This document shows positions 3,471-50,773 of a DNA stretch of 63,097 bases, piece by piece. The notes under the pieces were generated by a model. The model made no database searches. It had not been told where the DNA came from and worked only from the letters and a program-made list of their open reading frames with translations. The stretch lies in UHGV virus genome UHGV-0209665; one strand, written 5' to 3'. Each line of letters begins with the position of its first letter. Positions within the stretch are counted from its first letter, which is position 1. Made by a program: the position numbers and the translations under genes. The DNA comes from a virus.

Positions 3471-3530
3471 GTGGATTATTTGCAGATAATCCCATTGCTC
3501 CTTCAAATCAAGAATTTGGAGGAAAACGCT

Positions 3531-4160
3531 ATGAAACAATTAACCATGAAACTGAAAGATCTTGTTCGCCCAGAACGCAACATACGAATCCATACGGAAA
3601 AACAGTTGGAGGAGTTTGAAAGAAGCGTCAGGATGTTCGGACAGATCAGACCTATTGTGGTGGATGAAAACAACACAATTCTTGCCGGAAATGGATTGTA
3701 CGAAACCCTCTTGCGAATGAATCGGGAGGATGCGTTGGTTTATAAGTATGAAGATCTGACAGAGGCACAGAAGAAAAAACTGATGATTGCTGACAACAAG
3801 ATTTTCTCCCTCGGGATTGAGAACTTGGATACTTTGAATGAGTTTCTGGAAGAACTTAGTGGGGATCTGGATATCCCGGGATTTGATGAGGAAATTTTGA
3901 AGCAAATGGTAGCTGATGCTGACGAGATCACTGAGAAGATAGCGGAGTACGGGACGCTCGATGAGGATGAAGTACAAAAGATAAAAGAAGCGAACGAGAG
4001 AAGGGAGCAGCGCGAAGCGACAGGAAACACCGCGCAATATGAAACACCGACGTTTAGTGACGGCGATTCCGAAGGGCGCGACTCCGAGCCCGAACAGAAA
4101 CCGGCCGAAACAGGGAGATTCGTTATTTGCACGAAGTGTGGTGAGAAGATATGGCTGTAA
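3531..4160 (+). CDS. ParB N-terminal (ParB/Srx) domain protein (copy 1)
   Basis: KDLVRPERNIRIH...IRPIVVDENNTILAGNGLYE matches the ParB-like nuclease domain pattern. Start at internal ATG 3531 preferred (GGAGG RBS) over the 3471 start in the ORF track. Confidence 0.55.
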   Translation: MKQLTMKLKDLVRPERNIRIHTEKQLEEFERSVRMFGQIRPIVVDENNTILAGNGLYETLLRMNREDALVYKYEDLTEAQKKKLMIADNKIFSLGIENLDTLNEFLEELSGDLDIPGFDEEILKQMVADADEITEKIAEYGTLDEDEVQKIKEANERREQREATGNTAQYETPTFSDGDSEGRDSEPEQKPAETGRFVICTKCGEKIWL

Positions 4161-5302
4161 AACGCTGCGAATCGAATATAGATGTGGTAAAAGCTGCTGA
4201 AATACGTATAAAAAATGTGTTCCGGAACGGACTTCCTGTATTCTTTTCTTTCAGTGGAGGAAAAGACAGCCTGTGCGTAGCACAACTCATTGTGAATCTC
4301 GCAAACCGCGGGGAAATAGACATAAGGCAGTTGACTGTCCAGTTCATAGACGAAGAGGCGATCTTCCCGTGCATGGAAGAGATGACGAAGAAGTGGAGAC
4401 GAAAGTTTATGATGATGGGGGCGAAATTCGAATGGTTTTGCATAGAGGTAAAACATTTCAACTGCTTCAATGCCTTGTCGAATGATGAGACGTTTATATG
4501 CTGGGATTCAACAAAGCAAGACGTATGGGTAAGACGCCCGCCGGCATTTGCGATCAGGACGCACAAGCTACTTCGCCCGAGGATTGACGCATATCAGGAC
4601 TTCCTTCCCAGGACTTGCGCATCGGGAATCACACTGGTAGGTATTCGTACTGCCGAATCATTGCAGCGATTACAGAACATCGCGGCAATGACACAGGCCG
4701 GAAAGACCATGACGAACAAAAGACAGGTATTCCCGATATATGACTGGACCAATAATGATGTATGGCTGTACTTAAAACAGGAGAAGGTTGATATACCGGA
4801 AATATACCTGTTCTTATGGCAGTCAGGAAGTTCAAAGCAACAACTTAGAGTGTCACAGTTCTTTTCTGTAGATACGGCCAGATCTCTGGTAAAGATGAAT
4901 GAGTATTATCCGGATCTCATGGAACGGATTATACGCAGAGAACCAAATGCATATCTGGCGGCACTATACTGGGATAGCGAAATGTTTGGACGTAGTAGCA
5001 GGAAACGTAGGACGATGGAAGACGGTGCCAAGGAAAAGGATTACAAGAAGGAACTCATATATATGTTCTCGAACATGGATGTATTCTTTGATACACCTCA
5101 TAAAAGGAATATTGCGGAGAGATATCGGAACTTTTTTCTTCAGGTATCAGCCATTGCCAAACAAGAGGACTTCAAGCACATATATGAAGGACTCATTTCC
5201 GGCGATCCCAAAATGAGAACGTTCCGCGCGCTGTATCATCGGATTTACGGGAAATACATATCTGAGGCAAAGAAAACGGAGGAAAGCAGACATGGAAAAT
5301 AA
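4151..5302 (+). CDS. PAPS reductase-like PP-loop ATP pyrophosphatase family protein (copy 2, with ~130 aa C-terminal extension)
   Basis: FSFSGGKDSLCVAQL PP-loop; overlaps the upstream gene. Confidence 0.65.
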   Translation: MAVKRCESNIDVVKAAEIRIKNVFRNGLPVFFSFSGGKDSLCVAQLIVNLANRGEIDIRQLTVQFIDEEAIFPCMEEMTKKWRRKFMMMGAKFEWFCIEVKHFNCFNALSNDETFICWDSTKQDVWVRRPPAFAIRTHKLLRPRIDAYQDFLPRTCASGITLVGIRTAESLQRLQNIAAMTQAGKTMTNKRQVFPIYDWTNNDVWLYLKQEKVDIPEIYLFLWQSGSSKQQLRVSQFFSVDTARSLVKMNEYYPDLMERIIRREPNAYLAALYWDSEMFGRSSRKRRTMEDGAKEKDYKKELIYMFSNMDVFFDTPHKRNIAERYRNFFLQVSAIAKQEDFKHIYEGLISGDPKMRTFRALYHRIYGKYISEAKKTEESRHGK

Positions 5303-5813
5303 ATTGTTTGCCCCGTTGGGTACACTGCAATGGGTACCGCGGAGCATGTTAAAGCCAAACGATTACAACCCGAACAAAGTTTCGAAAGAAAATTTAAAGC
5401 TGCTCACACAGTCCATTCTTACCAATGGATGGACACTTCCGATTGTTGTAAGACCGGATTATACGATTATAGACGGATTCCACCGATGGACTGTTTCGGG
5501 CGAAGAGCCCCTATTGTCTATGCTTGGCGGGAAGGTGCCTATTGTTATCGTTGAACATTCGGAGAGATCGGAGGATATCTATGGCACCGTAACGCATAAC
5601 AGAGCGAGAGGTACCCACCTGTTAGAGCCTATGAAGGCGATTGTGAAAGAACTCATGAACGAGGGGAAAACCGTAGATGAAATAGGAAAACAGCTTGGAA
5701 TGAAGCCGGAAGAGATTTTCCGGTTATCTGACTTCTCGAAAGAGGACTTTCTTAACATGATGACCAAAGGAGTTACGGGGTTTTCTAAAGCAGAATATGT
5801 CACAAAAATCTGA
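5292..5813 (+). CDS. ParB-like nuclease domain protein (DGxHR-type, copy 2)
   Basis: LPIVVRPDYTIIDGFHRW: DGxHR motif of the ParB/sulfiredoxin/DndB-like superfamily. Confidence 0.65.
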   Translation: MENKLFAPLGTLQWVPRSMLKPNDYNPNKVSKENLKLLTQSILTNGWTLPIVVRPDYTIIDGFHRWTVSGEEPLLSMLGGKVPIVIVEHSERSEDIYGTVTHNRARGTHLLEPMKAIVKELMNEGKTVDEIGKQLGMKPEEIFRLSDFSKEDFLNMMTKGVTGFSKAEYVTKI

Positions 5814-31115: not shown

Positions 31116-32189
31116 ATGCCAAATTTTGATGATTTTAAGTTAGCGATTGAAGCGATGACGGGCGGTAAAAATACCGTCCTTTTTGATGACATGGAAATGC
31201 CGTCTGTTATGGTTCCGTTTCCAAAAATGAAAATTGCAGAAATTATGAGCGGCGGCAGTCAGAATATTCATCCGGCTTTTTCTGTGGGTGGCGTAGAGAA
31301 GGACGTTCTGTATATATCTAAATTCCAGAATATCGTACTGAATGACAGAGCTTACTCCCTTCCTATGCGTGATCCGAAGGTTTATGTTACGTTCGATCAG
31401 GCATTATCGTTTTGTCGCAATAAAGGAAAAGGCTGGAGTTTGAATCCGTATTCGCTGTGGAGTGCGATTGCTCTCTGGTGCAGAAAAAATGGAACTATGC
31501 CAAGAGGAAACAATTTCTGGGGTAAAGATTACACATACCAGCATGAAAAAGGTGTTCCCTGTGCATGGGAAAGCAAGGAAGCGGAATCACATCCAGGCGA
31601 ACCAGTACGTTGCCTTACCGGATCCGGACCAGCCACATGGTATCACAACTGGATGCCAGATGGCATTGCTGATTTGAATGGAAATGTGTGGGAATGGTGT
31701 GCTGGTATGCGTGTAAAGAATGGAGAAATCCAAATTATTCCGTATGCGAACAGTATGCTGGCAGAGACAAACATGGGAGATAAGTCAACGGAGTGGAAAG
31801 CTATCAAGAAGGACGGAACTCTTGTAGAACCTGGAACAGCAGATACATTGAAGTGGGATTGGGTATCAGGAAAGATTCAGCTTACTTCCGGTGCAGTATC
31901 CTACAAGACGGATCAGGGCAATGGTTGTCAGTATAAGGATATGACTCTCAACTCTTCTGTATCGGCAGCACCGGAAATTGCGAAGGCATTGTTGCTCTAT
32001 CCGGATGAGCCAGGCGGCGATTATGGTAGCGACTATCATTGGGTAAATACTGTCGGCGAGCGGCTGCCGTTATGCGGGGGCGGGTGGTACCATGGTGCCG
32101 ACGCCGGCGTTTTCGACGTCAATCTGTACTATCCCCGTTCCAGCTCCTACTCCACCGTTGGCTTCCGCTCCGCTTTTGTAGATCTGTAA
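31116..32189 (+). CDS. DGR target protein: tail fibre / receptor-binding protein with C-terminal FGE-sulfatase (C-type lectin fold) domain
   Basis: GNVWEWC and RLP...GG(G)W...GFR motifs of the formylglycine-generating-enzyme/CLec fold; VR at the extreme 3' end. Confidence 0.75.
   Translation: MPNFDDFKLAIEAMTGGKNTVLFDDMEMPSVMVPFPKMKIAEIMSGGSQNIHPAFSVGGVEKDVLYISKFQNIVLNDRAYSLPMRDPKVYVTFDQALSFCRNKGKGWSLNPYSLWSAIALWCRKNGTMPRGNNFWGKDYTYQHEKGVPCAWESKEAESHPGEPVRCLTGSGPATWYHNWMPDGIADLNGNVWEWCAGMRVKNGEIQIIPYANSMLAETNMGDKSTEWKAIKKDGTLVEPGTADTLKWDWVSGKIQLTSGAVSYKTDQGNGCQYKDMTLNSSVSAAPEIAKALLLYPDEPGGDYGSDYHWVNTVGERLPLCGGGWYHGADAGVFDVNLYYPRSSSYSTVGFRSAFVDL
32059..32174 (+). repeat. DGR variable repeat (VR)
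   Basis: 116-bp match to the TR at 32705-32820 with 10 mismatches, every one at a TR adenine. Confidence 0.85.
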
Positions 32190-32210
32190 TCTGCTTTACT
32201 GTGTTCTGCC

Positions 32211-32232
32211 CTCTCCCACGATAGTGGGAGAG
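32211..32232 (+). other. perfect hairpin downstream of VR (CTCTCCCAC-GATA-GTGGGAGAG), DGR homing-associated stem-loop
   Basis: 9-bp perfect inverted repeat with 4-nt loop, 37 nt after the VR end, as in characterised DGRs. Confidence 0.7.
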
Positions 32233-32302
32233 ATATTTTGATATTTGAAGTAATAACAGAATACGATATAAGATAACTTATACAGATTAAAAAGGCTGAA
32301 AT

Positions 32303-32683
32303 ATGATAATATCGATAAGAAAATGGCATACCGGAGGTTTCCAAGTGGAAGATCTTATTATTTTGCAGAAGGCGTTTGAAATGATGGAATATGGATACAC
32401 AGCGCTTGCACAGTACCCGAAATCAGAAAAATTTGCTCTTGTAGTAGATATAAAACGCTGTATGCACAAAATATTGGAAAAAATAATTGAGGCTAACAAG
32501 AAGTATTACAAAAAGACTACGCTCCAGGAGTTAGATGTGGAAATAATGAAATTAAAAGCTTATTTGCGATTATCGTATAATTTAAAGTTTCTTCCTTCTA
32601 AAAAGTATGAAATCTGGAGCAGCAAGTCTGTTGAGTTAGGACGCATGGTCGGCGGATGGATTAAAAGTACCAAAAAAGATTAG
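32303..32683 (+). CDS. avd: DGR accessory variability determinant
   Basis: 126 aa basic helical protein located between VR and TR. Confidence 0.65.
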   Translation: MIISIRKWHTGGFQVEDLIILQKAFEMMEYGYTALAQYPKSEKFALVVDIKRCMHKILEKIIEANKKYYKKTTLQELDVEIMKLKAYLRLSYNLKFLPSKKYEIWSSKSVELGRMVGGWIKSTKKD

Positions 32684-32704
32684 TGTGTTTTGGGAATAGG
32701 ATAC

Positions 32705-32820
32705 AGCGGCTGCCGTTATGCGGGGGCAGGTGGAACAATGGTGCCAACGCCGGCGTTTTCAACGTCAATCTGAACAATCCCCGTTCCAACTCCAACTCCA
32801 ACGTTGGCTTCCGCTCCGCT
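32705..32820 (+). repeat. DGR template repeat (TR)
   Basis: Non-coding copy of VR. The six-frame ORF 32683..32904 covering it is not a gene. Confidence 0.85.
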
Positions 32821-33008
32821 CTACCTTCGTTGGTCAGATGTTGCAAACTCAAGGGTTTGCATCCAGAACAGAAGGGTAAAGGATTCTATTTCCATGCTGA
32901 ATAAGCAAAAAAGGAAGGGACCTGATCCGGCCCCGTTGGATGCGGAATGCCGAGAGTAAGACAATCTGAAATTCGCAATGCCTAAAATTTAAATAATGGA
33001 GGGATAGT

Positions 33009-34118
33009 GTGTCCATAAAAAATATTTATTCAGAAATCTGTTCGTTTGATACATTGCTGCGGGCTGAAAGAAATGTAAGGAATGGAAAACGGTATGGTAG
33101 GAAAGAGCTAAGCTTCTGGGCGAATCTCGAAGAGAATATATACCGCATTTCCGAATCAATCAAAAGCCTCGATTTTCCTCCGGACTGTTACACATCTTTT
33201 TATGTATATGAACCCAAATTGAGAAAGATTGTGTCAGCAGATTACACGACCAAGATCATACAAAGGGCAGCTTACGATGTCATAAACCCTTTGGTGTGCA
33301 AGGGGTTTATATCAGATACATATGCGTGTATAAAAGGCAGAGGGCAGTTAAATGCCATGAAGCGCCTTGCGTCATGGGTGGACTATGTTCACGAAAGTGG
33401 AGATACTTGGTATTATCTGAAGATGGATATCGAAAAATTTTTTTACAGAATAGACCACGAAATCTTAATGAAGATCATACGAAAGAAAATAAGTGATAAA
33501 AAAGCACTAAGGTTGATGGAACATTATATTTGCGAGGCATCAAGCCCTTTTGGACTTCCGCTTGGAGTCACGAATCCTATGGATATCCCGGAAGAAGATA
33601 TGCTATGGGACGTTGGCATCACAATAGGAGGCGGATTGTCGCATATGTATGGGAATATGTATCTGGATCCTGCAGATCAGTTAGCAAAAAGAGAGCTTGG
33701 AATACAGAAGTATATCAGGCTGATGGACGACTCTGTCATTTTGCATCGGGATAAAGAAAAATTACATCAGTATAAAAAAGAATTTTCCGATTTTTTTGGA
33801 GATGTATTGCATTTAAGACTTAATGGAAAAACAGCGATACGCCCAATTAATCAAGGAATGGAATTTGTTGGATATCGTATTTGGCCACATAAAGTGAGAC
33901 TTAGAAAATCAACGAGTCTGCGAATGAAACGTCGTCTTAAACGAGTGCAGGATGATTATCGAGATTACAGGTTGTCGTTTGAAAAGGCGAATGACACAGT
34001 GATGAGTTACGCCGCATTAATGAAACATTGTGATTGCGAAGCCCTTAAAAAGAAAATTTTTGATAATTTTGTCCTTACTCATAATCCGAAGGAGGTAATA
34101 ACAAAAAATGGGCGATAG
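33009..34118 (+). CDS. DGR reverse transcriptase
   Basis: RT motifs including the IRLMDD (YxDD-like) box. GTG start with GGAGGG RBS. Immediately downstream of TR. Confidence 0.8.
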   Translation: MSIKNIYSEICSFDTLLRAERNVRNGKRYGRKELSFWANLEENIYRISESIKSLDFPPDCYTSFYVYEPKLRKIVSADYTTKIIQRAAYDVINPLVCKGFISDTYACIKGRGQLNAMKRLASWVDYVHESGDTWYYLKMDIEKFFYRIDHEILMKIIRKKISDKKALRLMEHYICEASSPFGLPLGVTNPMDIPEEDMLWDVGITIGGGLSHMYGNMYLDPADQLAKRELGIQKYIRLMDDSVILHRDKEKLHQYKKEFSDFFGDVLHLRLNGKTAIRPINQGMEFVGYRIWPHKVRLRKSTSLRMKRRLKRVQDDYRDYRLSFEKANDTVMSYAALMKHCDCEALKKKIFDNFVLTHNPKEVITKNGR

Positions 34119-34326
34119 CAATTTACTTGAGCTGCTGGACATGTATATTGATATGGTCGAAAAGCAGGACGAGGCCATACATCAATTGTCTGAATTGGTA
34201 AAGAAACAGGCTTTTGAAATCGCACATATGAAAAATATTTGCGGATTTGCAGATGAAAAAGCACTTGAACAAACGGAAGGAACTAAACTTGTTCAAGAAG
34301 TCTTAGTAAAATATGGAAAACTTTAA
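34108..34326 (+). CDS. hypothetical small protein (72 aa) overlapping the RT 3' end
   Basis: ORF with AAGGAGG RBS inside the RT tail. Confidence 0.3.
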   Translation: MGDSNLLELLDMYIDMVEKQDEAIHQLSELVKKQAFEIAHMKNICGFADEKALEQTEGTKLVQEVLVKYGKL

Positions 34327-34367
34327 ATATGGAATGAGGAGAAAAAAGACTCATCAGATGTTAGAGA

Positions 34368-34396
34368 AAAGATCGGGAAACCGATCTTTTTCTTTT
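34368..34396 (+). terminator. rho-independent terminator after the DGR cassette
   Basis: AAAGATCGG-GAAA-CCGATCTTT followed by a T-run. Confidence 0.65.
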
Positions 34397-35538: not shown

Positions 35539-37317
35539 TTGGAGGAAACTATGACAGAGAGAGAATTTATTGACAAGATTGGTTCACTTGCGGCTCAAGA
35601 CATGAAACAGAGCGGTATTTTGGCATCCATTACGGTGGCGCAGGCATGTCTGGAATCGGGATATGGTAGCACAGAACTTGCGGTTAATGCAAATAACCTA
35701 TTTGGAATGAAATGTTCCCTATCTGGCAATACATGGGACTCTGTGTGGGATGGTGTGAGTAAATATACAAAACAGACACAAGAGCAGAAACTGGATGGAA
35801 CAATATATACCATTATGGCAGATTTTCGGAAGTATCCAGATATTCTTGCAAGCATCAAAGATCATTCGTGCTATTTGAACGGAGCCATGAACGGGAATCA
35901 AAAAAGGTATGAAGGGCTTTCTGGAGAAAAGAACTATCGGAAAGTTGCAGAACTAATTAAAGCTGGAGGATACGCAACAGACATTTCTTATGTTGATAAA
36001 CTCTGCAGTTTAATTGAAAGATGGAATCTTACACAGTATGACAAGGAGGATAAAGGTATGAGTAATAGTAGTTTAGTAAATTGTGTAGTAAAAAGTCCTA
36101 ATCACAGTGGAGCGAGGACGCATTCGATTGACCGCATTACACCGCATTGTGTGGTTGGACAATTATCGGCGGAAGGAATTGGATCTTGTTTTCCGGACGG
36201 CCGAGAGGCAAGTTGTAACTATGGCATTGGATCCGATGGTCGTGTATGTTTGGTGGTAGATGAGGCTAATCGGAGTTGGTGTTCTTCCAGCAATGCAAAC
36301 GACCAGAGGGCGGTAACAATTGAGTGCGCAAGCGATATGTCACACCCATATGCTATGACAAATGCAGTGTATGAGAAGTTGATTGCCCTTTGCGTTGACA
36401 TTTGCCGAAGAAATGGAAAGACAAAGCTACTCTGGTTTGGAGATGAGAATACGTCTCTAAATTACGATCCGAAGCCAAATGAGATGGTTCTGACTGTACA
36501 TCGTTGGTTCGCAAATAAATCTTGCCCAGGTGACTGGTTGTATTCTAGACTTGGAGATGTGGCAAATAGGGTAACTGCTCAGCTGAGTGGGAGTACCGGT
36601 GGTGGAGGATCAACTGGTGGAGGAAGTGGATCCAGCAGCTATAAAACAGGAATGTACAAAGTCAATGTCGGAGACCTCAATATCAGAAAAGGACCAGGAA
36701 CAAATTACGGAACTAATGGGGTTATTACCGACAAAGGAACTTACACAATTACTGAAATCCAGAATGGCTCATGGGGAAAGCTTAAATCAGGGGCAGGTTG
36801 GATTAACGTCAGCGCAGCATATTGTTCTTACGTTGGCGCCTCATCAGGTGGAGGAAGTTCTTCTGGCGGCGGTTCTTCTTCTGGCTCTTCTTACAAGACC
36901 GGAACGTACAAGGTTAATGTGGAGGAACTCAATATTCGGAAAGGTCCAGGAACAAATTATGGAATTAATGGATCAATCAAGGACAAAGGTGTCTACACAA
37001 TTACAGAAATTAAAAATGATTCTTGGGGAAAATTAAAGTCCGGCTCTGGATGGATCAATGTCGATAAAGCATATTGCACCTATAAAGGTGCATCTTCTGG
37101 AGGAGGATCTTCATCTGGAACAGGAAACTTTATGGTACAGGTAAATATTTCAGATCTTTATATCAGAAAAGGACCTGGCACTAATTATGGAACAAACGGC
37201 TTTTGCCCAAAAGGCACATATACTATTGTGGAAACAAAGAATTCCGGTGGACATACATGGGGAAAACTTAAATCCGGTGCTGGTTGGATTGCCCTTGAAT
37301 ATGCAAAACGGGCATAA
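35539..37317 (+). CDS. endolysin: GH73 N-acetylglucosaminidase + N-acetylmuramoyl-L-alanine amidase + three SH3b cell-wall-binding repeats
   Basis: AQACLESGYG (GH73) motif. Central amidase_2-like region. Three ~80-aa repeats (YKxGxYKVNVxxLNIRKGPGTNYG...SWGKLKSGxGWI) are separated by Gly/Ser linkers. Confidence 0.8.
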   Translation: MEETMTEREFIDKIGSLAAQDMKQSGILASITVAQACLESGYGSTELAVNANNLFGMKCSLSGNTWDSVWDGVSKYTKQTQEQKLDGTIYTIMADFRKYPDILASIKDHSCYLNGAMNGNQKRYEGLSGEKNYRKVAELIKAGGYATDISYVDKLCSLIERWNLTQYDKEDKGMSNSSLVNCVVKSPNHSGARTHSIDRITPHCVVGQLSAEGIGSCFPDGREASCNYGIGSDGRVCLVVDEANRSWCSSSNANDQRAVTIECASDMSHPYAMTNAVYEKLIALCVDICRRNGKTKLLWFGDENTSLNYDPKPNEMVLTVHRWFANKSCPGDWLYSRLGDVANRVTAQLSGSTGGGGSTGGGSGSSSYKTGMYKVNVGDLNIRKGPGTNYGTNGVITDKGTYTITEIQNGSWGKLKSGAGWINVSAAYCSYVGASSGGGSSSGGGSSSGSSYKTGTYKVNVEELNIRKGPGTNYGINGSIKDKGVYTITEIKNDSWGKLKSGSGWINVDKAYCTYKGASSGGGSSSGTGNFMVQVNISDLYIRKGPGTNYGTNGFCPKGTYTIVETKNSGGHTWGKLKSGAGWIALEYAKRA

Positions 37318-37707: not shown

Positions 37708-37735
37708 AAAGAGAGAGGCTTAACCCCTCTCTTTT
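37705..37735. terminator. bidirectional terminator between convergent genes
   Basis: AGAGAGAGG-CTTAA-CCCCTCTCTTTTTT hairpin. Confidence 0.5.
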
Positions 37736-38175
37736 TTCGTTTCTTGAATATTTGTTAATAAGGACGTTCTCAGAAAGTCATAATCAAGTCCAAAGTCCTT
37801 GTATCCTTGATATATGGTATCTATATATCTCTCGCTTGGTTGTCCTGGCTTCGCGCCTTTAAACATAATATAAACCATGGCCTTTATGTGCGAATCGTCC
37901 GAAATAGTCACGTAGACGTTTTGCTTAGAATAAAACCGAGGATAGCCCTCATATATATCAAGGTTTCTTTCGTCTGAGTGCTGAATGCCCCATACTACAA
38001 CGGGAACCCGATACCCCTTTTTTCGACGTATTGTTGCGTATGATCCTGTCTTACTTCCCCTGTAAATCAACTCCCAGTTATTCAGATAACCGGTATATAC
38101 CGGTTTGGCACTTGGACAACGGTGCCTCATTTGTTGTTTGTTCAGATTACTCCCATAAGCTACATATAATTTCAT
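37720..38175 (-). CDS. AIG2/gamma-glutamyl cyclotransferase (GGCT)-like protein
   Basis: N-terminal LYVAYGSNLN (YGSNx) motif and conserved Glu in LDIYEGYP. Confidence 0.7.
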   Translation of the reverse strand: MKLYVAYGSNLNKQQMRHRCPSAKPVYTGYLNNWELIYRGSKTGSYATIRRKKGYRVPVVVWGIQHSDERNLDIYEGYPRFYSKQNVYVTISDDSHIKAMVYIMFKGAKPGQPSERYIDTIYQGYKDFGLDYDFLRTSLLTNIQETKKERG

Positions 38176-38191
38176 AATTAATCCTCCTCTC

Positions 38192-39115
38192 TTACGCTGC
38201 TATGGTTGCGGTGTTTTCTTTAAGATTCTTCATCATGTGGAATCTGCAAGTTTTAAATTCATCTCCGTACAACCCAAGCCTGTTTGTTAAAATGTGGTAC
38301 ATCAAAGTTACTTTCTTATCAGCAGAGTACCCAGAAACGCTTCTGAAGACAACTTTGCCGGTTGACTCTATTGACCATGCGGACAAAGCGAGACAAAACT
38401 GGATGTATGCTTTGATTCGACCAGCATGCAATGTGCTATTGAAAAGCCTAAATTCTACAGTCCCTTTTGAAAAAAAGCTGTGAAGATTAAGTGCATGATA
38501 TCTTGTTTCATTGTAATGGTTGTGGTTTACGCCGCCCCAATAATGATCGTTCGCCTCGCTATACCAAATTTGCTCTGCTTTATCTTTTGTGAGATTAGAT
38601 TCCTTTTTCATTGTATCGTAAAGGCTCTTGCAGATTGGTTTGCACCAGCGATTTTTTCTTTCCCCAACTCCCAATGCTTCATATATGATTTCTTGTCTGG
38701 ATAACATGAAGTTTACCATTCTACGAAGTGATGTGGCTGTGTGGTTTGCACCGTCAATATGGATATGAATACCGCAGCTACTATGAGGAACACCGCCGAT
38801 TTCTTTGAATTTTCGAATGATGTTTTGCAAAGTCTCAATGTCCTCATATTTAAGAGGTGGTGTAACGAATTCGACTCTGTATTCATCTATATTTGCGGTT
38901 CCGACATTTGCCTTTGGCGAAATTGAACTATCTCGCATCACTTTCCATGTTCTTCGTTGTGAATCCTTTATGGTTCTTGTGTAGTACGCATCTCTTTTTG
39001 GACCGGAAATTGTTCCGCCAACGATTTCTTGAACAGCCTTTGCGGCCATTTCTCTTGTTATACCGGTGAATTCTACTTCAACTCCAAATTTTTGCTTTTT
39101 TAAAAGTTCTGACAT
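38192..39115 (-). CDS. amidoligase (Amidoligase_2 / glutamine-synthetase-like carboxylate-amine ligase) family protein
   Basis: N-terminal FGVEVEF motif; size ~300 aa; coupled by a 16-nt spacer to the downstream GGCT-like gene. Confidence 0.65.
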   Translation of the reverse strand: MSELLKKQKFGVEVEFTGITREMAAKAVQEIVGGTISGPKRDAYYTRTIKDSQRRTWKVMRDSSISPKANVGTANIDEYRVEFVTPPLKYEDIETLQNIIRKFKEIGGVPHSSCGIHIHIDGANHTATSLRRMVNFMLSRQEIIYEALGVGERKNRWCKPICKSLYDTMKKESNLTKDKAEQIWYSEANDHYWGGVNHNHYNETRYHALNLHSFFSKGTVEFRLFNSTLHAGRIKAYIQFCLALSAWSIESTGKVVFRSVSGYSADKKVTLMYHILTNRLGLYGDEFKTCRFHMMKNLKENTATIAA

Positions 39116-39865: not shown

Positions 39866-41368
39866 CTATTTTCCACCTATTCCATACAGTTTGCTGTATT
39901 TCGGAATCGTTGTATCAACCATAAACTGATCAAGATTTTTTAAGCTTCCCTGCGACAATTCACAAGATGATATGGCATCAGAGTACATGGCCATAATAAG
40001 ATCTTTGAGAGTTGCCGAAGGTTTAAAAGAAGAAATAGTCTGTATAATTGCATCCCCAAAAGCTATCAAATCCAGATACGTTTCCAGTTTATATCCGTAA
40101 ACCATTTCTGATTCAATATCAATCCCATACTTTATAAAGATGTTTTTGTTGTTTTTTCGTATATGTTCGTTTCCTTGCTGCTCAGCCGTTGCCAGGGCGT
40201 GTTGGCTGAGCCGGCCAAGCGGCGAACCGGGTACCATATCTACAACAATGCCATCGGCTCCGTTTTCGGCGACGGATGAAGTCTCCTGTTCTTTTTTAAT
40301 AACACCTTCTATTCTTTGCGCTAGCTCCCTGTCTGTTCCAGGATAAAGGTGTGAGTAAGTATCCCACGTGGTTTTTATGGAATCATGCCCGAGGCGACGG
40401 GAGATCTCTTCGATTGCAAATCCCATATTAACCAGCATGGCCACATGGCTGTGTCTCAGATCATGAACTCTTATCTCTTTGTCTCCAGAACGCTTGATCA
40501 TCCTTTTGAATTCGCTGTAAAGTCCGCCCTTTTTGAAATAGAATATACGTTCTTCCGGTTCAAGGCACATACTGTCTATGAATTCAAGAACTTCTGCATG
40601 TATAGAATTTGGTATTGTGATTTTCCGTATGCTCCGCTTTGTCTTTGGAGTTAAAAAATATTCAATACCATCTACTACGGCATAGTTCTTATTTACATCT
40701 ACAATTGCGGTATCTCGTGGAAAATCTTCCGGTGTAAGCGCAAGCAGCTCCCCCTCTCTCATGCCGCTGTAAAAAAGCAGCTTGAAAGCAACTATATAAG
40801 ACGGTTTCTGTTCAAACTGCATAGTATGTTCAAATTCTTCTTTGGTCCAGAAATTCATTTCTTCAGCTCGGCTTTTCCCGATGCTTCCTGCGACATAACA
40901 TGGATTTATTCCAAGTTTGTAGTATTTGACTGCATAGTTAAACACAGCCGAAAGCTGTGAGTTTATTGAGTGCAGATATGTTTCGGCATAAGGCTCACCT
41001 TTTTCATTACGATAATCAATTAAGCTATTCTGCCACCTTCTAACAAGATCTGCATCAATGTCGCATATCTGCATTTTCCCGAAATAAGGAAGCAGCTTTG
41101 TTTCGACAATGTATCTCTTACCCTTTAATGTTGTCGGCTTCAGTCTGGATTCCATATCTTCCATATAATTTCCGGCCAAAGAGGAAAAGAGGATTGTTGG
41201 GCTTTTAGAATACTTATCCAAGAACAGCCGTTCATACTCTTTTGCAGCTCCTTTTGTATCAAATCCACGTTTGCATTTATGCTTTTTTTCGCCGAGCCAG
41301 TCTGTGTAGTAAAAATTTGCATACCATTTTGTTTTCCCGTCCTTTGTTTGATATTTATATGCAGGCAT
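39866..41368 (-). CDS. int: tyrosine integrase with N-terminal AP2-like DNA-binding domain and ~150-aa C-terminal extension
   Basis: HDLRHSH and TWDTYSHLY catalytic motifs; N-terminal KYQTKDGKTKWYANFYY AP2-like region. Confidence 0.85.
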   Translation of the reverse strand: MPAYKYQTKDGKTKWYANFYYTDWLGEKKHKCKRGFDTKGAAKEYERLFLDKYSKSPTILFSSLAGNYMEDMESRLKPTTLKGKRYIVETKLLPYFGKMQICDIDADLVRRWQNSLIDYRNEKGEPYAETYLHSINSQLSAVFNYAVKYYKLGINPCYVAGSIGKSRAEEMNFWTKEEFEHTMQFEQKPSYIVAFKLLFYSGMREGELLALTPEDFPRDTAIVDVNKNYAVVDGIEYFLTPKTKRSIRKITIPNSIHAEVLEFIDSMCLEPEERIFYFKKGGLYSEFKRMIKRSGDKEIRVHDLRHSHVAMLVNMGFAIEEISRRLGHDSIKTTWDTYSHLYPGTDRELAQRIEGVIKKEQETSSVAENGADGIVVDMVPGSPLGRLSQHALATAEQQGNEHIRKNNKNIFIKYGIDIESEMVYGYKLETYLDLIAFGDAIIQTISSFKPSATLKDLIMAMYSDAISSCELSQGSLKNLDQFMVDTTIPKYSKLYGIGGK

Positions 41369-46518: not shown

Positions 46519-46934
46519 TGAAGATGATCAAGATTACTACTGGCAATCAAATTTCTGTTCATGACTTTCCGGATGGGAGCATTTCAGAACAAACGAAGTT
46601 GCTGTGCAAGTACATAGGACCGGAATGCGAGCTGGTAGAACACGTAATGCCAAAACGATTATATACAGAACTCAATGCTCCTCGTAAAAGAGGAAATTGC
46701 GTAAGCATGTTGGTTGATGAAGACGGATATTACCATGAATTATCCCCAAATATCATCGGCTCATGGCTTTATGAAACAGATATTCATGGGTATCCAATAC
46801 TTGGAAACATATTGATTGTAGGCGAACAATGGATAAACGAAGGAATTTCTTTTTGCGGATTAACAGAAGAGCAGTTTTCCCTGCTCTTTCCACAGCTTAG
46901 AAATTTAACAGAGAAAGCGAGGAAAAACGGATGA
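46518..46934 (+). CDS. hypothetical protein (138 aa)
   Basis: ATG 46518 preceded by a G-rich RBS. Confidence 0.3.
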   Translation: MKMIKITTGNQISVHDFPDGSISEQTKLLCKYIGPECELVEHVMPKRLYTELNAPRKRGNCVSMLVDEDGYYHELSPNIIGSWLYETDIHGYPILGNILIVGEQWINEGISFCGLTEEQFSLLFPQLRNLTEKARKNG

Positions 46935-49900
46935 AAATATTACACACAGCAGACTGGCATATAGGACAGTTTAAAGGACCTGTTGAGGATGGAGTAAATC
47001 TCCGTTCTCTTGATACCATTAAATGCCTTGAGTATATGGTTAAAGTTGCGGAAGAAGAGAAGCCGGATATGGTGTGCATTAGCGGGGATATCTTCCACCA
47101 AGAGCAGATAGGACCGGTTAGGTACTCTGATGAAATGGTTACGGCCACGAGGATTATCGAGGGATTGGCAGAGCGCTCCAAGTTTGTAGTTGTGATGCGT
47201 GGAACACCGAATCACGATGGAGCCGGACAGTTTCGGGTTCTGGAAAAGATGCTGTCGAAGAATAAAAAAATTGCAGTTGTCACTACACCGCAGGTTATCT
47301 CTACTCCAATAGCGGATGTTGCCTGTATTCCCGGGTTTGACAAACAGGAATTTCGAGCGAAATTCCCTGGCTTGTCTGCAGAGGAAGAAAATCTGACATG
47401 GACCAAGTATATATCAGATATGGTTATGGGGTTAAGGGCGCAATGCTCAAATACAAATATCATACCAGATATGACTCCTGCAATTTTGATGGCACATTAT
47501 ACAGTGCCAGGATGCAACATGGAATCTGGACAAACCTCATTCTTTTCAAATTTTGAACCTGTTATTCCAAGAGAAGCCATACAAGCGGCGGATTATTCGG
47601 CAGTTCTTTTAGGACACATCCACCGTCCGCAGACCATAGAGGGACTGGAAAACGTATTTTATTCTGGCGCAATAAATGCAATGAATTTTAATGATGAGGG
47701 ACAAAGCAGAGGGTTCTGGATACATGAATTTGACGGGAGAAGACTTAAATCCGGAAAGCGATATGAGACTCCGTACAGGAAGTTTCAGACGGTAACATGG
47801 GCACAAGAGGATGTTGAGAATTATCTCTGCCGGGGAAAGGAGTTTCTCTTTACAGAGGGATATCCGTTCCTTGTATCAGATAAAATTGTCAGAATCAAAT
47901 ATAGCTGTACTGTTGAACAGAAAAAGGCACTTAATATACCGGTTTTGCAGTCTGATTTATATGAGATGGGTGCATTCTATGTAGCTGACATTGAAGCGGA
48001 AAGTATGGTTGATGTAGCAAACAGAGGTCTCTTGTCAGAGGAAAGCGATCCGTTGCTCAACTTGAAAAAATGGCTCTCTGAGAAATGTGTAAAAGATGCG
48101 GACAAGATCGTTGAACTGGGCGAACCAATTATTTCAGTTGCTATGAAGTCGGAAACGACATCAGAGAACCATGGAGTTTTCCGTCCGGTATCAATCTCGG
48201 TTAAGAACTATCGAAATTATAAAGAAGAAGGTTTTGATTTTTCTGATGTTTCATTTTGCTCTATCAATGGTGTAAATGGAGCGGGAAAGAGCAGTCTTTT
48301 CATGGATGCTATTGCTGATTGCCTATACGAAGAAACAAGAGAAGGGGATAACAAAGCATGGATCCGAGGGACGGAAGATGCAAGAAGTGGCTCGATAGAA
48401 TTTGTGTTTGATATTGGGGATAAGCGTTTCCGGGTTGTGCGGACAAGAACGAAGTCAGGCAGGGCAACCTTGAACATTTCGCAAAAGGATGGAGAAGAAT
48501 GGCTGAACCTGTCTGCAGAGAGAATAAAAGATACACAGGCTGAAATAGAGAAAATCCTTGGTATGGATTCAATGACATTCCGCAGCTGCGCTTTAATCAT
48601 GCAGGACCAGTATGGGTTATTCTTGCAGGCTAAGAAAGAAGATCGCATGACTATCCTTGGAAATTTATTGGGGCTTTCGGTTTATGGTCTGATGGAACAG
48701 GAAGCAAAGAAGCTTCTGGCAGATACAAAGCGGAATCTTCTTTCTAAGAAGGAAGCTGTAAAAGTAAAATCCGAGTTCGTTGCAGAAAAAGGAAATCCGG
48801 ACGGAGAACTTGAGAATTTGGAAAAAGAGGCTTCTGAATTTGACCAGATACGTAAGATGACAGAACAGGACATTGAGGTATGCAAAAAGCAGATTGCAGA
48901 CCGTAAAGAGGCACAGGATAAAAGTACTGAACTTTTGCAATCTACTGATACAGAGAAAAAAGCGCTTCTCTCAATACAATCCGAAAAAGAAGCAGCAGAG
49001 AAAGAAATGGAAACGTGCGATGTTTTTCTGAAAAATTCTGAAATCATCATGGCGAAAGCGGCGGAATATGAAGCTGCGGAAGAAACCGTAAAAAAACTGG
49101 CTCCCGATGTAATGGAATACGAGTCGTGCAAGCGATCTTTGGAAGAAAAACAAAACCAGATCCTGCGTTATGAAAATATTATTAACACAACTCAAATTCA
49201 GAACCGATCAATAGAGGAACAACTTTCTAAGATTGAGACTGCAGAGGAAGAACTTATTTCGCAGAAGCTTTCTGAGCTTGAAGACAAACGAAAGGAACTT
49301 GCAGAAATACGGGAGAAAAAGGACCGGTGTTCAGCCGTATGTGCAGAGGTAAATAAGAAGCATGGAGAAGTAACCGAAACTGTACATGGTCTTTCTACAC
49401 AATTGCGGCTCGCAGAGTCGGATCTTGATTCGTACAAGAAACAGCAGGAGTTTATGGATAATTCCGGATGCCCTGATATTGAAAATGCAACATGCAGATT
49501 TCTTGAAAAAGCCAGGGAAGATGTTGCGAAAATCAAAAAGACGGAAGAAGAGATAGCGGAAATAAAAGAAAGTATCCGAATTGCCAAAGAAGATTACGCA
49601 ACGTATGCAGCTGAAAAGAAAAAGGAGATTGCAGAAATCGGGTATTCAGAGGAACAGGAGAAGAACGTTCTTAGTGAAATCACTAATCTGGAGACTTACC
49701 AAAAGCGGAAAGATGAGATAGACAGACTGAAAGCTTTAAAAGCCCGTTTAGAAGGGGAGAAAGCCTCTAATGATAAAACAATAGTTTCATGTACTGAAAA
49801 TGTCTCTACGGTCAAATTAGAAAGCCATAAGATAACGGAAAACGTTTTAAAGCTAACTGAAACAGTTGAAAGATATCAAGAAGCAAAACGAATATCGGAA

Positions 49901-50773
49901 GAACTGCGGATATATGCAGATCAGAAAACCAATATTCCGGTTTACGCAGAGAGAAAGAAGCATATAGCCGAAAAGCTGAAAGATCTTGAAGAACGGGAAC
50001 GGCTTAAAAATGAAGAGTGGTCTAAGTTGTGTGCCGAATATATCCGTTTGAACGAAGAACTTGCTGGATTGCCGGAAGGAAAAGAAGAAAAACTTTCCGA
50101 GCTGGAAAGAAAGAAGATGGAATTGGAGGAAAAAGCAGCTTCCATGCAAGTCAGAAAAGGGGTGCTGCTTCAGCGGATAGAGGATACAAAAAAAGCAAAT
50201 GAAGAAATCAACCAGCTTAAAGCAGAGATTTCCCGGGATGCAGAGAAAGCGGCTCGGTATGAGGTGCTGAAACAGGCATTCTCCCAGGACGGAGTGCCGC
50301 ATCAGATTGTCAGAAATATTATTCCTCATATCACTGATACGGCGAATAACATCCTTGGTCAGATGACCGGCGGAACCATGGGAGTTGAATTTGTAATGGA
50401 ACGCACCGTAAAAGGAAAGGATGGAGATAAAGCTACTCTGGATGTACTGATCAACGAATACGGAAAAACGACACTGCCGTATGCTTCAAAGTCTGGAGGC
50501 GAAAAAGTAAAGTCTTCCCTTGCTGTTATTCTTGCTCTTTCGGAAATTAAGGCGACTGCAGCCGGTATCCAGCTTGGGATGTTGTTCATTGACGAGCCCC
50601 CGTTCTTGGATGATGATGGAGCACAGGCCTATGTGGATTCTCTTGAAACAATCCGTAGCAGGTATCCGGATGTAAAAGTGATGGCAATCACACATGATGA
50701 TGCGATGAAAGCAAGGTTTAGTCAGAGTATCACAGTTATTAAGACTGACGAAGGATCAAAAGTAATCTGCTAG
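46931..50773 (+). CDS. fused SbcD-SbcC (Mre11-Rad50-like) nuclease/ATPase, 1280 aa
   Basis: N-terminal phosphoesterase motifs (DWHIG, GDIFH, GTPNHDG, GHIH). Then Walker A NGVNGAGKSS, a long coiled-coil with a C-x7-C hook-like site, signature SGGEKV, Walker B LFIDEP and H-loop ITHD. Confidence 0.75.
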   Translation: MKILHTADWHIGQFKGPVEDGVNLRSLDTIKCLEYMVKVAEEEKPDMVCISGDIFHQEQIGPVRYSDEMVTATRIIEGLAERSKFVVVMRGTPNHDGAGQFRVLEKMLSKNKKIAVVTTPQVISTPIADVACIPGFDKQEFRAKFPGLSAEEENLTWTKYISDMVMGLRAQCSNTNIIPDMTPAILMAHYTVPGCNMESGQTSFFSNFEPVIPREAIQAADYSAVLLGHIHRPQTIEGLENVFYSGAINAMNFNDEGQSRGFWIHEFDGRRLKSGKRYETPYRKFQTVTWAQEDVENYLCRGKEFLFTEGYPFLVSDKIVRIKYSCTVEQKKALNIPVLQSDLYEMGAFYVADIEAESMVDVANRGLLSEESDPLLNLKKWLSEKCVKDADKIVELGEPIISVAMKSETTSENHGVFRPVSISVKNYRNYKEEGFDFSDVSFCSINGVNGAGKSSLFMDAIADCLYEETREGDNKAWIRGTEDARSGSIEFVFDIGDKRFRVVRTRTKSGRATLNISQKDGEEWLNLSAERIKDTQAEIEKILGMDSMTFRSCALIMQDQYGLFLQAKKEDRMTILGNLLGLSVYGLMEQEAKKLLADTKRNLLSKKEAVKVKSEFVAEKGNPDGELENLEKEASEFDQIRKMTEQDIEVCKKQIADRKEAQDKSTELLQSTDTEKKALLSIQSEKEAAEKEMETCDVFLKNSEIIMAKAAEYEAAEETVKKLAPDVMEYESCKRSLEEKQNQILRYENIINTTQIQNRSIEEQLSKIETAEEELISQKLSELEDKRKELAEIREKKDRCSAVCAEVNKKHGEVTETVHGLSTQLRLAESDLDSYKKQQEFMDNSGCPDIENATCRFLEKAREDVAKIKKTEEEIAEIKESIRIAKEDYATYAAEKKKEIAEIGYSEEQEKNVLSEITNLETYQKRKDEIDRLKALKARLEGEKASNDKTIVSCTENVSTVKLESHKITENVLKLTETVERYQEAKRISEELRIYADQKTNIPVYAERKKHIAEKLKDLEERERLKNEEWSKLCAEYIRLNEELAGLPEGKEEKLSELERKKMELEEKAASMQVRKGVLLQRIEDTKKANEEINQLKAEISRDAEKAARYEVLKQAFSQDGVPHQIVRNIIPHITDTANNILGQMTGGTMGVEFVMERTVKGKDGDKATLDVLINEYGKTTLPYASKSGGEKVKSSLAVILALSEIKATAAGIQLGMLFIDEPPFLDDDGAQAYVDSLETIRSRYPDVKVMAITHDDAMKARFSQSITVIKTDEGSKVIC

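What the first reader, a model, noticed from the sequence alone, without database searches (positions are those of the whole stretch)
31116..34396. Complete diversity-generating retroelement diversifying a lectin-fold tail fibre
All DGR components are present in canonical order. The target gene has an FGE/C-type-lectin fold C-terminus (GNVWEWC). The 116-bp VR (32059-32174) and TR (32705-32820) differ at exactly 10 positions, all adenines in TR, mostly in AAC codons. A perfect hairpin follows the VR. An avd gene lies between VR and TR, and the RT gene follows TR. The spurious ORF 32683-32904 is the TR itself. This is a mechanistically known system class, but it indicates active receptor-binding hypervariation in this phage.
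Basis: seen in the sequence. Interest (0 to 1): 0.65.

Follow-up and report, generated by a model that had tools for sequence, protein, structure and literature searches.

The report
Active diversity-generating retroelement in a gut prophage
This is a complete, demonstrably active diversity-generating retroelement that rewrites the tip of a lectin-fold tail-module protein in a widespread human-gut prophage; it is a textbook example of a well-known system, not a new one.

Summary
VR (32059-32174) and TR (32705-32820) are 116 nt and differ at 10 sites, all TR adenines at codon positions 1-2 (chance P=1.4e-8).

The gene order is target, avd, TR, RT:
- The target is a full-length homologue of the solved DGR variable protein TaqVP (PDB 5VF4, E=1e-59), which has an FGE-type C-type-lectin fold.
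- Avd passes NCBI's curated Avd model.
- The RT's best solved relative is the Bordetella phage DGR RT.

The cis elements are also present:
- A 9-bp hairpin with a GATA loop lies 36 nt after the VR, supported by covariation.
- The TR-RT spacer matches Rfam RT-14.
- An 11-bp long-range duplex brackets the TR.

Ten independent copies with an identical RT protein all carry different VRs. All 22 variable columns are TR adenines (P=8e-23), the TR is constant in all but one fetched copy, and there are no stop codons.

"Tail fibre" is inferred only from position in the baseplate module. Cultured phages (FP_Lagaffe, Saumur, BalMu-1) have the same module at 34-46% identity. Verdict: new member of a known kind, modest interest.

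The parts
31116..32189 (+). Target gene (357 aa): DGR variable protein, a full-length homologue of TaqVP (FGE-type C-type-lectin fold). It is the last gene of the baseplate/tail module.
   Evidence: PDB 5VF4 phmmer E=1e-59. Family profile E=1.5e-76 over residues 5-354. 5VF4 is TaqVP. phrog_2889 1.9e-134 and phrog_5302 'tail protein' for the C-terminus. Pfam FGE-sulfatase is below cutoff.
32059..32174 (+). Variable repeat (VR), encoding residues 315-353 of the target.
   Evidence: 116-nt repeat. 10 A-specific mismatches to the TR. 10 distinct VRs in 10 independent copies, with variation only at TR-adenine columns.
32175..32210 (+). VR-specific 3' flank (IMH-like region). It diverges from the TR flank, contains the stop codon (32187-32189), and is conserved in relatives down to 34% RT identity (TTTGTAGATCTG...ACTGTGTTCTG).
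   Evidence: VR/TR alignment ends at 32174/32820. Conservation in alignment A1. Function inferred by analogy with BPP-1 IMH.
32211..32232 (+). DNA hairpin/cruciform for target-site recognition: 9-bp stem with a 4-nt GATA (5'-GRNA) loop, 36 nt after the VR.
   Evidence: Fold z=-4.1. 95-100% paired, with 7 of 9 pairs changed on both sides across relatives. Criteria from Guo 2011, PMC3240598. Also scores as terminator-like.
32345..32683 (+). avd accessory gene (112 aa from GTG 32345; the alternative ATG 32303 gives 126 aa).
   Evidence: Pfam bAvd 1.8e-29. phrog_3206 'Avd protein of DGR' 5.7e-39. NCBIfam NF033474 equivalog 108.3 bits against a cutoff of 80. Gene calls in related contigs.
32692..32702 (+). 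5' strand (GGGAAUAGGAU) of a long-range RNA duplex that brackets the TR; candidate 'cPRT stop' duplex.
   Evidence: RNA duplex prediction across relatives. 11 pairs, 100% paired in 6 distinct sequences, 4 pairs changed on both sides, slid controls at most 64% paired. Concept from Handa et al. bioRxiv 10.1101/2023.10.23.563531.
32705..32820 (+). Template repeat (TR): 23 A, of which 22 are mutable (10 AAY codons, one AGG, one TTA).
   Evidence: Identical in 10 of the 11 TRs compared, the one exception being a single A-to-G change in L006.
32819..32961 (+). Spacer RNA downstream of the TR (Rfam RT-14). Its parts are a stem-loop at 32821-32876 (inner 9-bp stem 32840-32863), an invariant UAAAGG at 32877-32882, and the 3' strand of the long-range duplex at 32883-32893.
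   Evidence: Rfam RF02921 51.2 bits against a gathering score of 48.1. Covariation in the stem. Coordinates.
33009..34118 (+). DGR reverse transcriptase (369 aa). Motifs: IGGGLSH (residues 206-212), LMDD (238-241), motif A MDIEKFF (139).
   Evidence: Best PDB hit is the 328-aa 8ub7 chain, 2.1e-31. Its numbering matches the bRT residues K29, F66, R74, I181, Q187, D215 and D216 named. phrog_1423 6.8e-119. Far below the cutoffs of the group II, retron and Drt models. Motifs.
34108..34326 (+). 72-aa ORF overlapping the RT stop by 11 nt. Function unknown; membership in the element uncertain.
   Evidence: No hit in Pfam, PHROGs or NCBIfam. Conserved directly after the RT in all relatives with at least 58% RT identity, and absent from more distant cassettes.
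34371..34396 (+). Terminator-like hairpin (GATCGG-GAAA-CCGATC) plus a T-run, closing the cassette.
   Evidence: RNA fold -18 kcal/mol, z=-2.7. Not listed by the consensus scan, so it is only suggestive.

Best explanation
This is a complete, currently active diversity-generating retroelement of the Bordetella-phage BPP-1 type, carried by a ~63-kb temperate Mu-like myophage of human-gut Clostridia/Lachnospiraceae.

Proposed mechanism, with what is shown and what is inferred:
1. An RNA spanning the avd-TR gap, the TR and the ~190-nt spacer folds so that an 11-bp long-range duplex brackets the TR, and a tetraloop-capped stem-loop sits just downstream of it. This structure is supported by covariation.
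2. The RT-Avd complex copies the TR into cDNA and misincorporates at template adenines. This is inferred from homology to bRT-Avd.
3. The cDNA replaces the VR at the 3' end of the target gene. It is directed by the VR-specific 3' flank and the GRNA-loop hairpin 36 nt downstream. This is inferred from BPP-1 genetics; the conservation is shown here.
4. As a result, 12 codons in the last 39 residues of a TaqVP-like C-type-lectin-fold protein are randomised. That allows about 3.5e12 protein variants with no possible stop codons, while the TR stays constant. This outcome is shown by cross-sample comparison.
5. The target most likely is the phage's receptor-binding protein, so the element provides host-range or tropism switching. 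This is inferred from gene position and analogy to Mtd.
For: - VR/TR pair: 10 of 10 mismatches at TR adenines, P=1.4e-8.
- Avd: passes the curated Avd equivalog.
- RT: the best solved relative is bRT. The residues that promote adenine mutagenesis in bRT (R74, I181) are conserved as R72 and I206, and the catalytic DD is present.
- Target: full-length TaqVP homologue, with the VR aligned on the TaqVP VR.
- Hairpin: meets the published DGR criteria and covaries.
- RNA: Rfam RT-14 hit above gathering score exactly between the TR and the RT. Stem covariation. Long-range duplex covariation, matching the RNA elements described for bRT-Avd.
- Activity: the identical RT protein is indexed in 2647 blocks of the assembly collection. 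Ten independent copies have 10 different VRs, with pairwise differences of 8-19. All 22 variable columns are TR adenines (P=8e-23). 53% of the mutable-A cells are non-A, and no VR contains a stop codon. Four copies have 0 differences in 943+530+1110 nt of flanking DNA. The TR is identical in 10 of 11 copies.
- Relatives: cassettes at 34-93% RT identity keep the 116/117-nt VR/TR pair with A-specific mismatches.
- Architecture: the same module order is annotated in the cultured phages FP_Lagaffe and Saumur.
Against: - No direct biochemical evidence exists for cDNA synthesis or retrohoming in this element.
- The RT carries IGGGLSH instead of the canonical [I/V/L]GxxxSQ, and LMDD instead of YMDD. 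SH is a documented variant in functional DGRs, bRT Q187P retains mutagenesis, and copies with this exact RT show diversified VRs.
- Cross-sample differences show diversification in the recent past of the lineage, not within this particular sample.
- The virion location and receptor-binding role of the target are untested.
- The AlphaFold model of the target was too poor to use (pLDDT 52).
Confidence: 0.93

Rival explanations
1. Fossil DGR: the components are present but the element no longer functions, and the 10 VR/TR differences are relics of past activity.
For: The RT deviates from the canonical motifs (SH for SQ, LMDD for YMDD). A single genome cannot show activity.
Against: Copies encoding the identical RT protein, four of them with no difference across ~2.6 kb of flanking DNA, carry 10 different VRs that differ only at TR-adenine columns. 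That amount of VR turnover with zero flanking substitutions requires recent, repeated mutagenic homing.
Confidence: 0.03
2. The VR hypervariability comes from ordinary mutation with strong diversifying selection, or from recombination among phage lineages, not from retrohoming.
For: Receptor-binding tips of phage proteins are commonly under diversifying selection and are mosaic.
Against: All 22 variable columns coincide with the TR adenines (P=8e-23). No non-adenine position varies. Only first and second codon positions of AAY codons change. The flanks are identical.
Confidence: 0.01
3. The hairpin at 32211-32232 is simply the intrinsic transcription terminator of the target gene and has no role in retrohoming.
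For: It is the top terminator-like site in the consensus scan, with ATATTTTGAT after the stem. It lies 22 nt after the stop codon.
Against: In relatives the T-rich tail is not conserved (for example L014 TAGTAGTAGAGG and L026 TGCTATGG). The 4-nt G[A/G]TA loop is near-invariant and the stem is kept by compensatory changes. Loop size and the GRNA sequence are exactly what Guo et al. found to be required for DGR homing. A dual role is possible.
Confidence: 0.12
4. The target is not a virion receptor-binding protein. It might be an enzyme of the SUMF1/EgtB/PvdO family or a lysogen-expressed surface protein.
For: NCBI names a 79%-identical homologue 'SUMF1/EgtB/PvdO family nonheme iron enzyme'. There is a weak Pfam FGE-sulfatase hit. 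No tail-fibre domain was detected, and phrog_2889 has no assigned function.
Against: The FGE hit is below Pfam's cutoff (20.1 against 23.3 bits). The full-length match is to TaqVP, a DGR variable protein whose FGE-type C-type-lectin fold is a binding scaffold. The gene sits after Baseplate_J, Mu Gp48 and four small ORFs in every relative, and before the lysis genes. The FP_Lagaffe homologue is annotated as Mtd-like.
Confidence: 0.1

Closest known systems
Bordetella phage BPP-1 DGR (mtd-avd-TR-brt)
   Same: - Same gene order, with an Avd accessory protein.
- The RT's best solved relative is bRT, with R74, I181 and the catalytic Asp equivalents conserved.
- Adenine-specific TR-to-VR differences in AAY codons, and about 1e12-1e13 theoretical variants.
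- The VR lies at the extreme 3' end of a C-type-lectin-fold protein.
- A hairpin with a 4-nt GRNA loop lies after the VR.
- The RNA has a stem-loop just after the TR and a duplex pairing sequences on either side of the TR.
   Different: - The target is TaqVP-like; no sequence match to Mtd appeared in the PDB searches.
- The RT has SH instead of SQ and LMDD instead of YMDD.
- The 5' strand of the long-range duplex lies in the 21-nt avd-TR gap rather than inside avd.
- The hairpin is 36 bp from the VR end, just beyond the 4-34 bp range tabulated by Guo et al.
- The host phage is a Mu-like myophage of gut Firmicutes.
TaqVP, Thermus aquaticus DGR variable protein (PDB 5VF4)
   Same: Homologous over essentially the full length (residues 5-354 against 11-384, profile E=1.5e-76). 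The VR aligns with the TaqVP VR at the C-terminus. TaqVP has the FGE-type C-type-lectin fold.
   Different: Here the protein is encoded in a phage tail module. The pairwise alignment is in two blocks with a poorly aligned stretch (residues 252-270). No structure for this protein could be modelled with confidence.
DGR modules of the cultured phages Faecalibacterium phage FP_Lagaffe, Clostridium phage Saumur and Bacillus phage BalMu-1
   Same: FP_Lagaffe and Saumur share the same local order: baseplate J-like, baseplate I/Gp48-like, 3-4 small ORFs, Mtd-like/TaqVP-like target, Avd, TR, RT, small ORFs, endolysin. BalMu-1 matched by protein similarity only; its gene order was not examined.
   Different: Only 34-40% (RT) and 40-46% (target) amino-acid identity. 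There is no nucleotide-level match to any record in the cultured-phage collection. The 72-aa ORF after the RT was not detected in FP_Lagaffe or Saumur.
Rfam RT-14 RNA (RF02921)
   Same: The TR-RT spacer at 32819-32961 matches the whole model (1-144) above the gathering score. The first stem-loop is well matched.
   Different: The 3' hairpin of the model is poorly matched here (many non-canonical pairs). The family's link to DGR spacer RNA is my inference from its position, not something I verified in the literature (the search found nothing).

Membership tests
Diversity-generating retroelement (DGR) | A TR/VR repeat pair whose differences are essentially all at TR adenines | tested here: met
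   10 of 10 mismatches at TR adenines, P=1.4e-8. The same pattern holds in relatives.
Diversity-generating retroelement (DGR) | VR located at the 3' end of a protein-coding target gene, with variable adenines at codon positions 1-2 (AAY codons) | tested here: met
   The VR encodes residues 315-353 of 357. All changes are at codon positions 1 or 2, and no stop codon is possible or observed.
Diversity-generating retroelement (DGR) | An RT of the DGR clade carrying the domain-4 signature [I/V/L]GxxxSQ or one of its documented variants (SP, SH, NQ and others) | tested here: met
   The motif is IGGGLSH at residues 206-212. The SH variant is listed among functional DGRs in PMC3521204. The best solved relative is bRT at 2.1e-31, against 2.9e-15 for a group II RT. 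Scores are far below the cutoffs of the group II, retron and Drt NCBIfam models. No formal RT phylogeny was built.
Diversity-generating retroelement (DGR) | An accessory protein (Avd or an HRDC-type protein) adjacent to TR/RT | tested here: met
   NCBIfam NF033474 'diversity-generating retroelement protein Avd' equivalog, 108.3 bits against a cutoff of 80. Pfam bAvd 1.8e-29.
Diversity-generating retroelement (DGR) | Target-site elements: a VR-specific 3' flank (IMH) and a downstream hairpin with a 7-10 bp GC-rich stem and a 4-nt GRNA loop | tested here: met
   9-bp stem with a GATA loop, 36 nt after the VR. Covariation. Criteria from PMC3240598. The distance is 2 bp beyond the 4-34 bp range listed there, which the authors call flexible. 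The function of the IMH-like flank is inferred.
Diversity-generating retroelement (DGR) | Structured RNA flanking the TR: a stem-loop just downstream of the TR and a duplex between sequences upstream and downstream of the TR | tested here: met
   Rfam RT-14 hit above gathering score. Stem covariation. 11-bp bracketing duplex, 100% paired, with 4 doubly changed pairs. Compared with Handa et al.. Binding to RT or Avd was not tested.
Diversity-generating retroelement (DGR) | Unidirectional, adenine-specific diversification of the VR with an invariant TR (activity) | tested here: met
   10 independent copies give 10 distinct VRs. 22 of 22 variable columns are TR adenines (P=8e-23). The TR is identical in 10 of 11 copies, and the flanks are identical in four copies. 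This is population evidence, not an experiment.
Diversity-generating retroelement (DGR) | RT-dependent cDNA synthesis from the TR RNA (cis-priming) and retrohoming | not testable with these tools
   This needs biochemistry or genetics. The invariant UAAAGG at 32877-32882 is only a candidate priming region.
C-type-lectin-fold DGR variable proteins (Mtd / TvpA / TaqVP) | FGE-type C-type-lectin fold with the VR forming the C-terminal binding surface | tested here: met
   Full-length sequence homology to TaqVP, PDB 5VF4 (1e-59 and 1.5e-76). The fold is described. An independent structure prediction failed (pLDDT 52), so the fold rests on homology only.
Phage tail fibre / receptor-binding protein | Located on the virion tail tip and mediating adsorption | not testable with these tools
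   Only positional evidence is available. The gene follows Baseplate_J, Mu Gp48 and four small ORFs and precedes the lysis genes. phrog_5302 'tail protein' matches the C-terminus only.

The most novel reading that the evidence does not exclude
The window's RT clade may be a distinct DGR sub-type. It is defined by IGGGLSH plus L/F/YMDD, and by a clade-specific 72-aa ORF that abuts or overlaps the RT stop in every relative with at least 58% RT identity.

Two things could follow:
- The small protein could be a new accessory factor.
- The His-for-Gln change at the dNTP-contacting position could shift the misincorporation spectrum.

Natural VRs here show G > T > C at mutated adenines (53:41:22). 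Selection on the protein could equally explain that spectrum.
Probability: 0.08. Interest if true: 0.45.

Novelty: new member of a known kind. Interest (0 to 1): 0.25.

Why it matters
The finding gives a clean, fully annotated example of an active phage DGR in a very widespread human-gut prophage. The identical RT is indexed in 2647 blocks of public assemblies.

All known cis elements could be mapped, and natural VR diversity is documented. That makes it a good candidate for experiments on tropism switching in gut Clostridia phages, or as a source of a Firmicutes-adapted DGR for targeted-mutagenesis tools.

It does not change the understanding of DGRs. The mechanism class, the target fold, the RNA elements, the SH motif variant and the module layout in Mu-like Firmicutes phages have all been described.

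Tried and rejected
- **Megablast of the cassette against 50,697 cultured-phage records:** no match.
- **Exact degenerate VR/TR pattern in IMG/VR:** no match. Relatives were found through the RT protein instead.
- **AlphaFold2 model of the target from a 26-sequence alignment:** mean pLDDT 52. It was judged unusable and no fold search was run. The fold claim rests on sequence homology to 5VF4.
- **Apparent avd-less cassettes:**
  - L012 has VR-TR spacing of 145 nt, which turned out to be a 100-N scaffold gap.
  - L029 has a 403-aa target and no avd. This is probably the same VR/TR collapse. A real recombination deletion is not excluded.
- **Global duplex energy between 100 nt upstream and 190 nt downstream of the TR:** not better than shuffles (72 of 300 as good). 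Only the specific 11-bp core is supported, by covariation.
- **RNAalifold's pairing of TR UCC (32815-32817) with the GGA of UAAAGGA:** both sides are invariant, so it cannot be tested. The A of that GGA (32883) competes with the bracketing duplex.
- **Literature search for 'RT-14' together with DGR:** nothing found.
- **Group II intron, retron and Drt RT identities:** rejected on NCBIfam scores far below the cutoffs.
- **Promoter-like sites between the hairpin and avd (32238-32307):** they exist, but the region's count is not above the shuffle expectation (14 against 11.3), so no promoter is claimed.


Full report
**Observation**

The repeat finder returns a single long direct repeat in the region: 116 nt at 32059-32174 and 32705-32820, 91% identical. 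A base-by-base comparison gives exactly 10 mismatches. Every one is an adenine in the downstream copy and a non-adenine in the upstream copy. Seven lie in AAC codons, two in AAT and one in AGG, always at codon position 1 or 2 in the frame of ORF 31116-32189. With 23 adenines among 116 positions, the chance that 10 mismatches all hit adenines is 1.4e-8. A pattern with N at every TR adenine finds only these two copies in the 63-kb window. The homology ends sharply at 32174/32820. The flanks then differ: TTTGTAGATCTG after the VR, CTACCTTCGTTG after the TR.

**Proteins**

- *Target.* The upstream ORF (357 aa) gives only a sub-threshold Pfam FGE-sulfatase hit. It matches PDB 5VF4 at E=1e-59, and a 26-member family profile matches it at 1.5e-76 over residues 5-354.
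  - 5VF4 is TaqVP, the Thermus aquaticus DGR variable protein, with an FGE-type C-type-lectin fold and a C-terminal VR (bioRxiv 10.1101/432187).
  - The VR here (residues 315-353) aligns with the TaqVP VR.
- *Avd.* ORF 32345-32683 passes NCBI's curated equivalog 'diversity-generating retroelement protein Avd' (108 bits against a cutoff of 80). It also matches Pfam bAvd (1.8e-29).
- *RT.* ORF 33009-34118 is a reverse transcriptase. Its best solved relative is the 328-aa chain of 8ub7 (2.1e-31).
  - That chain's numbering reproduces the bRT residues K29, F66, R74, I181, Q187 and D215/D216 named by Handa et al..
  - Scores for group II intron, retron and Drt models are far below their cutoffs.
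  - The bRT residues shown to promote adenine mutagenesis, R74 and I181 (PMC7826257), are conserved as R72 and I206.
- *RT deviations.* There are two.
  - The DGR signature [I/V/L]GxxxSQ reads IGGGLSH. This is conserved as SH in relatives of 58-93% identity, and is SQ in a 34% relative.
  - The YMDD box reads LMDD, where relatives have Y/F/LMDD.
  - SH is a documented variant among functional DGRs (PMC3521204). bRT Q187P keeps its misincorporation frequency.

**Cis elements**

- *Hairpin.* A perfect 9-bp hairpin with a GATA loop lies at 32211-32232, 36 nt after the VR (z=-4.1).
  - Guo et al. (PMC3240598) showed that BPP-1 homing needs such a hairpin. Phage DGRs have 7-10 bp GC-rich stems and 4-nt 5'-GRNA loops 4-34 bp after the VR. 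Stem structure matters but stem sequence does not; loop sequence does matter.
  - In seven diverged cassettes the loop is GATA or GGTA and the stem sequence differs completely but stays paired. 95% of cells are paired, 7 of 9 pairs are changed on both sides, covariation is 0.94 against 0.27 in shuffles, and slid controls are at most 55% paired.
  - The hairpin also scores as terminator-like. The T-rich tail is not conserved in relatives, so a pure terminator role is unlikely.
  - The 36 nt between the VR and the hairpin are themselves conserved and are the likely IMH equivalent.
- *Spacer RNA.* Rfam places RT-14 (RF02921, 51.2 bits against a gathering score of 48.1) at 32819-32961, exactly between the TR and the RT. 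Its first stem-loop, with a 9-bp inner stem at 32840-32863, covaries among eight relatives.
- *Long-range duplex.* The 11 nt just upstream of the TR (32692-32702, GGGAAUAGGAU) pair with 32883-32893 (AUUCUAUUUCC). The pairing is 100% in six distinct sequences, with four pairs changed on both sides. Slid controls give at most 64% pairing and at most one such pair.
  - A tetraloop-capped ~9-bp stem-loop just after the TR, and a duplex pairing sequences upstream and downstream of the TR (the 'cPRT stop'), are what Handa et al. describe for bRT-Avd RNA and predict for 207 other DGRs.
  - Assigning those functions here is inference.

**Activity**

The exact RT protein is indexed in 2647 blocks of public assemblies, on contigs up to more than 1 Mb. 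Together with the window, a MAG copy (L010) and the eight fetched contigs that include the target gene give ten VRs.

- All ten VRs are different, with pairwise differences of 8-19.
- All 22 variable columns are TR adenines (P=8e-23), that is, 22 of the 23 adenines.
- 53% of the mutable-adenine cells are non-A (G 53, T 41, C 22).
- No VR contains a stop codon.
- The TR is identical in 10 of the 11 copies compared (these ten plus the TR-only contig L009).
- Four copies have no difference at all in the remaining 943 nt of the target gene, the 530-nt VR-TR interval and the 1110-nt RT gene.

It excludes a fossil element, and it excludes ordinary mutation plus selection. Relatives at 34-93% RT identity keep a 116/117-nt VR/TR pair with adenine-specific mismatches. 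The TR design (10 AAY codons, one AGG, one TTA) allows about 1.8e13 DNA variants and 3.5e12 protein variants.

**Context**

The window reads as a complete ~63-kb temperate phage.

- *Packaging and morphogenesis:* terminase, Mu-type portal and MuF, sheath, a 1631-aa tape measure, Baseplate_J and Mu Gp48.
- *DGR neighbourhood:* four small ORFs, then the DGR, then a holin and a glucosaminidase/amidase/SH3 endolysin.
- *Lysogeny and replication:* a tyrosine integrase, a repressor and replication genes.

The identical RT occurs in a human-gut 'Clostridiales bacterium' MAG. A 79%-identical target is found in a Blautia massiliensis MAG. The target gene's position is conserved in all relatives. This is the only evidence that it is a tail or receptor-binding protein; 'tail fibre' remains an inference.

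**Comparison with known systems**

The element has the BPP-1 layout and passes every DGR membership feature I could test. The cultured phages FP_Lagaffe (target annotated 'BPP-1 major tropism-determinant-like protein') and Saumur carry the same module in the same place, and BalMu-1 encodes homologous RT and target proteins. Identity is 34-46% at the protein level, and there is no nucleotide-level match to any cultured phage. It is therefore a new member of a known kind.

The unexplained details are small. One is the clade-specific 72-aa ORF overlapping the RT stop. The other is the SH/LMDD motif variants.

**Dead ends**

- The AlphaFold model of the target was poor (pLDDT 52) and was not used.
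- Two 'avd-less' relatives are VR/TR assembly collapses: L012 certainly (100 N) and L029 probably.

Noticed in passing
window 34108-34326 (+): A 72-aa ORF overlaps the RT stop codon by 11 nt and has no hit in Pfam, PHROGs or NCBIfam. A homologue sits directly after the RT in every relative with at least 58% RT identity (L011, L012, L014, L016, L019, L020). None is detectable in L023, L026-L028, FP_Lagaffe or Saumur. It could be a clade-specific DGR accessory or just the first gene of the lysis module.
   Followed up: partly
window 33009-34118, RT residues 206-212 and 238-241: The RT carries IGGGLSH instead of the canonical [I/V/L]GxxxSQ. His replaces the Gln that contacts the incoming dNTP in bRT. 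It also carries LMDD instead of YMDD, where close relatives have Y, F or L at that position. Population data show the enzyme still produces adenine-specific diversity.
   Followed up: partly
L029 3501-4712; L012 4616-4715: In two related contigs avd is missing between the VR and the TR. L012 has a 100-N scaffold gap there. L029 has a 403-aa target that reads into TR-derived sequence. These are probably assembler collapses of the VR/TR repeat. A genuine VR-TR recombination deletion in L029 was not excluded.
   Followed up: partly
window 1319-5813 (+): Upstream of the terminase genes, the phage carries a 462-aa sodium:solute-symporter-like membrane protein (Pfam SSF 5e-23; phrog_20720). Next to it are two PAPS-reductase-like proteins and two ParB-like proteins. 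A transporter-like gene is unusual cargo at this position.
   Followed up: no
window 37720-39115 (-): A GGACT (gamma-glutamyl cyclotransferase-like) and Amidoligase_2 gene pair lies on the opposite strand between the endolysin and the integrase. It is conserved in L001-L007 and L009. It looks like a moron cassette of unknown role.
   Followed up: no
window 46931-50773 (+): A single 1280-aa ORF combines an N-terminal Metallophos/SbcD-like domain with an SbcC-like region (phrog_100 and phrog_77). It appears to be a fused SbcCD-type nuclease in the replication module.
   Followed up: no
window 39866-41368 (-) versus L001 12862-13110: Downstream of the conserved lysis/GGACT/amidoligase block, the window has a tyrosine integrase. 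The otherwise near-identical contig L001 has a large serine recombinase (Resolvase/Recombinase/Zn_ribbon_recom). The integration module has apparently been swapped between very close relatives.
   Followed up: no
window 35539-37317 (+): The endolysin (glucosaminidase plus Amidase_2) ends in three tandem SH3-type repeats separated by Gly/Ser-rich linkers. These show up as about 70-80% identical DNA repeats in related loci (for example L010 8513-9051).
   Followed up: no
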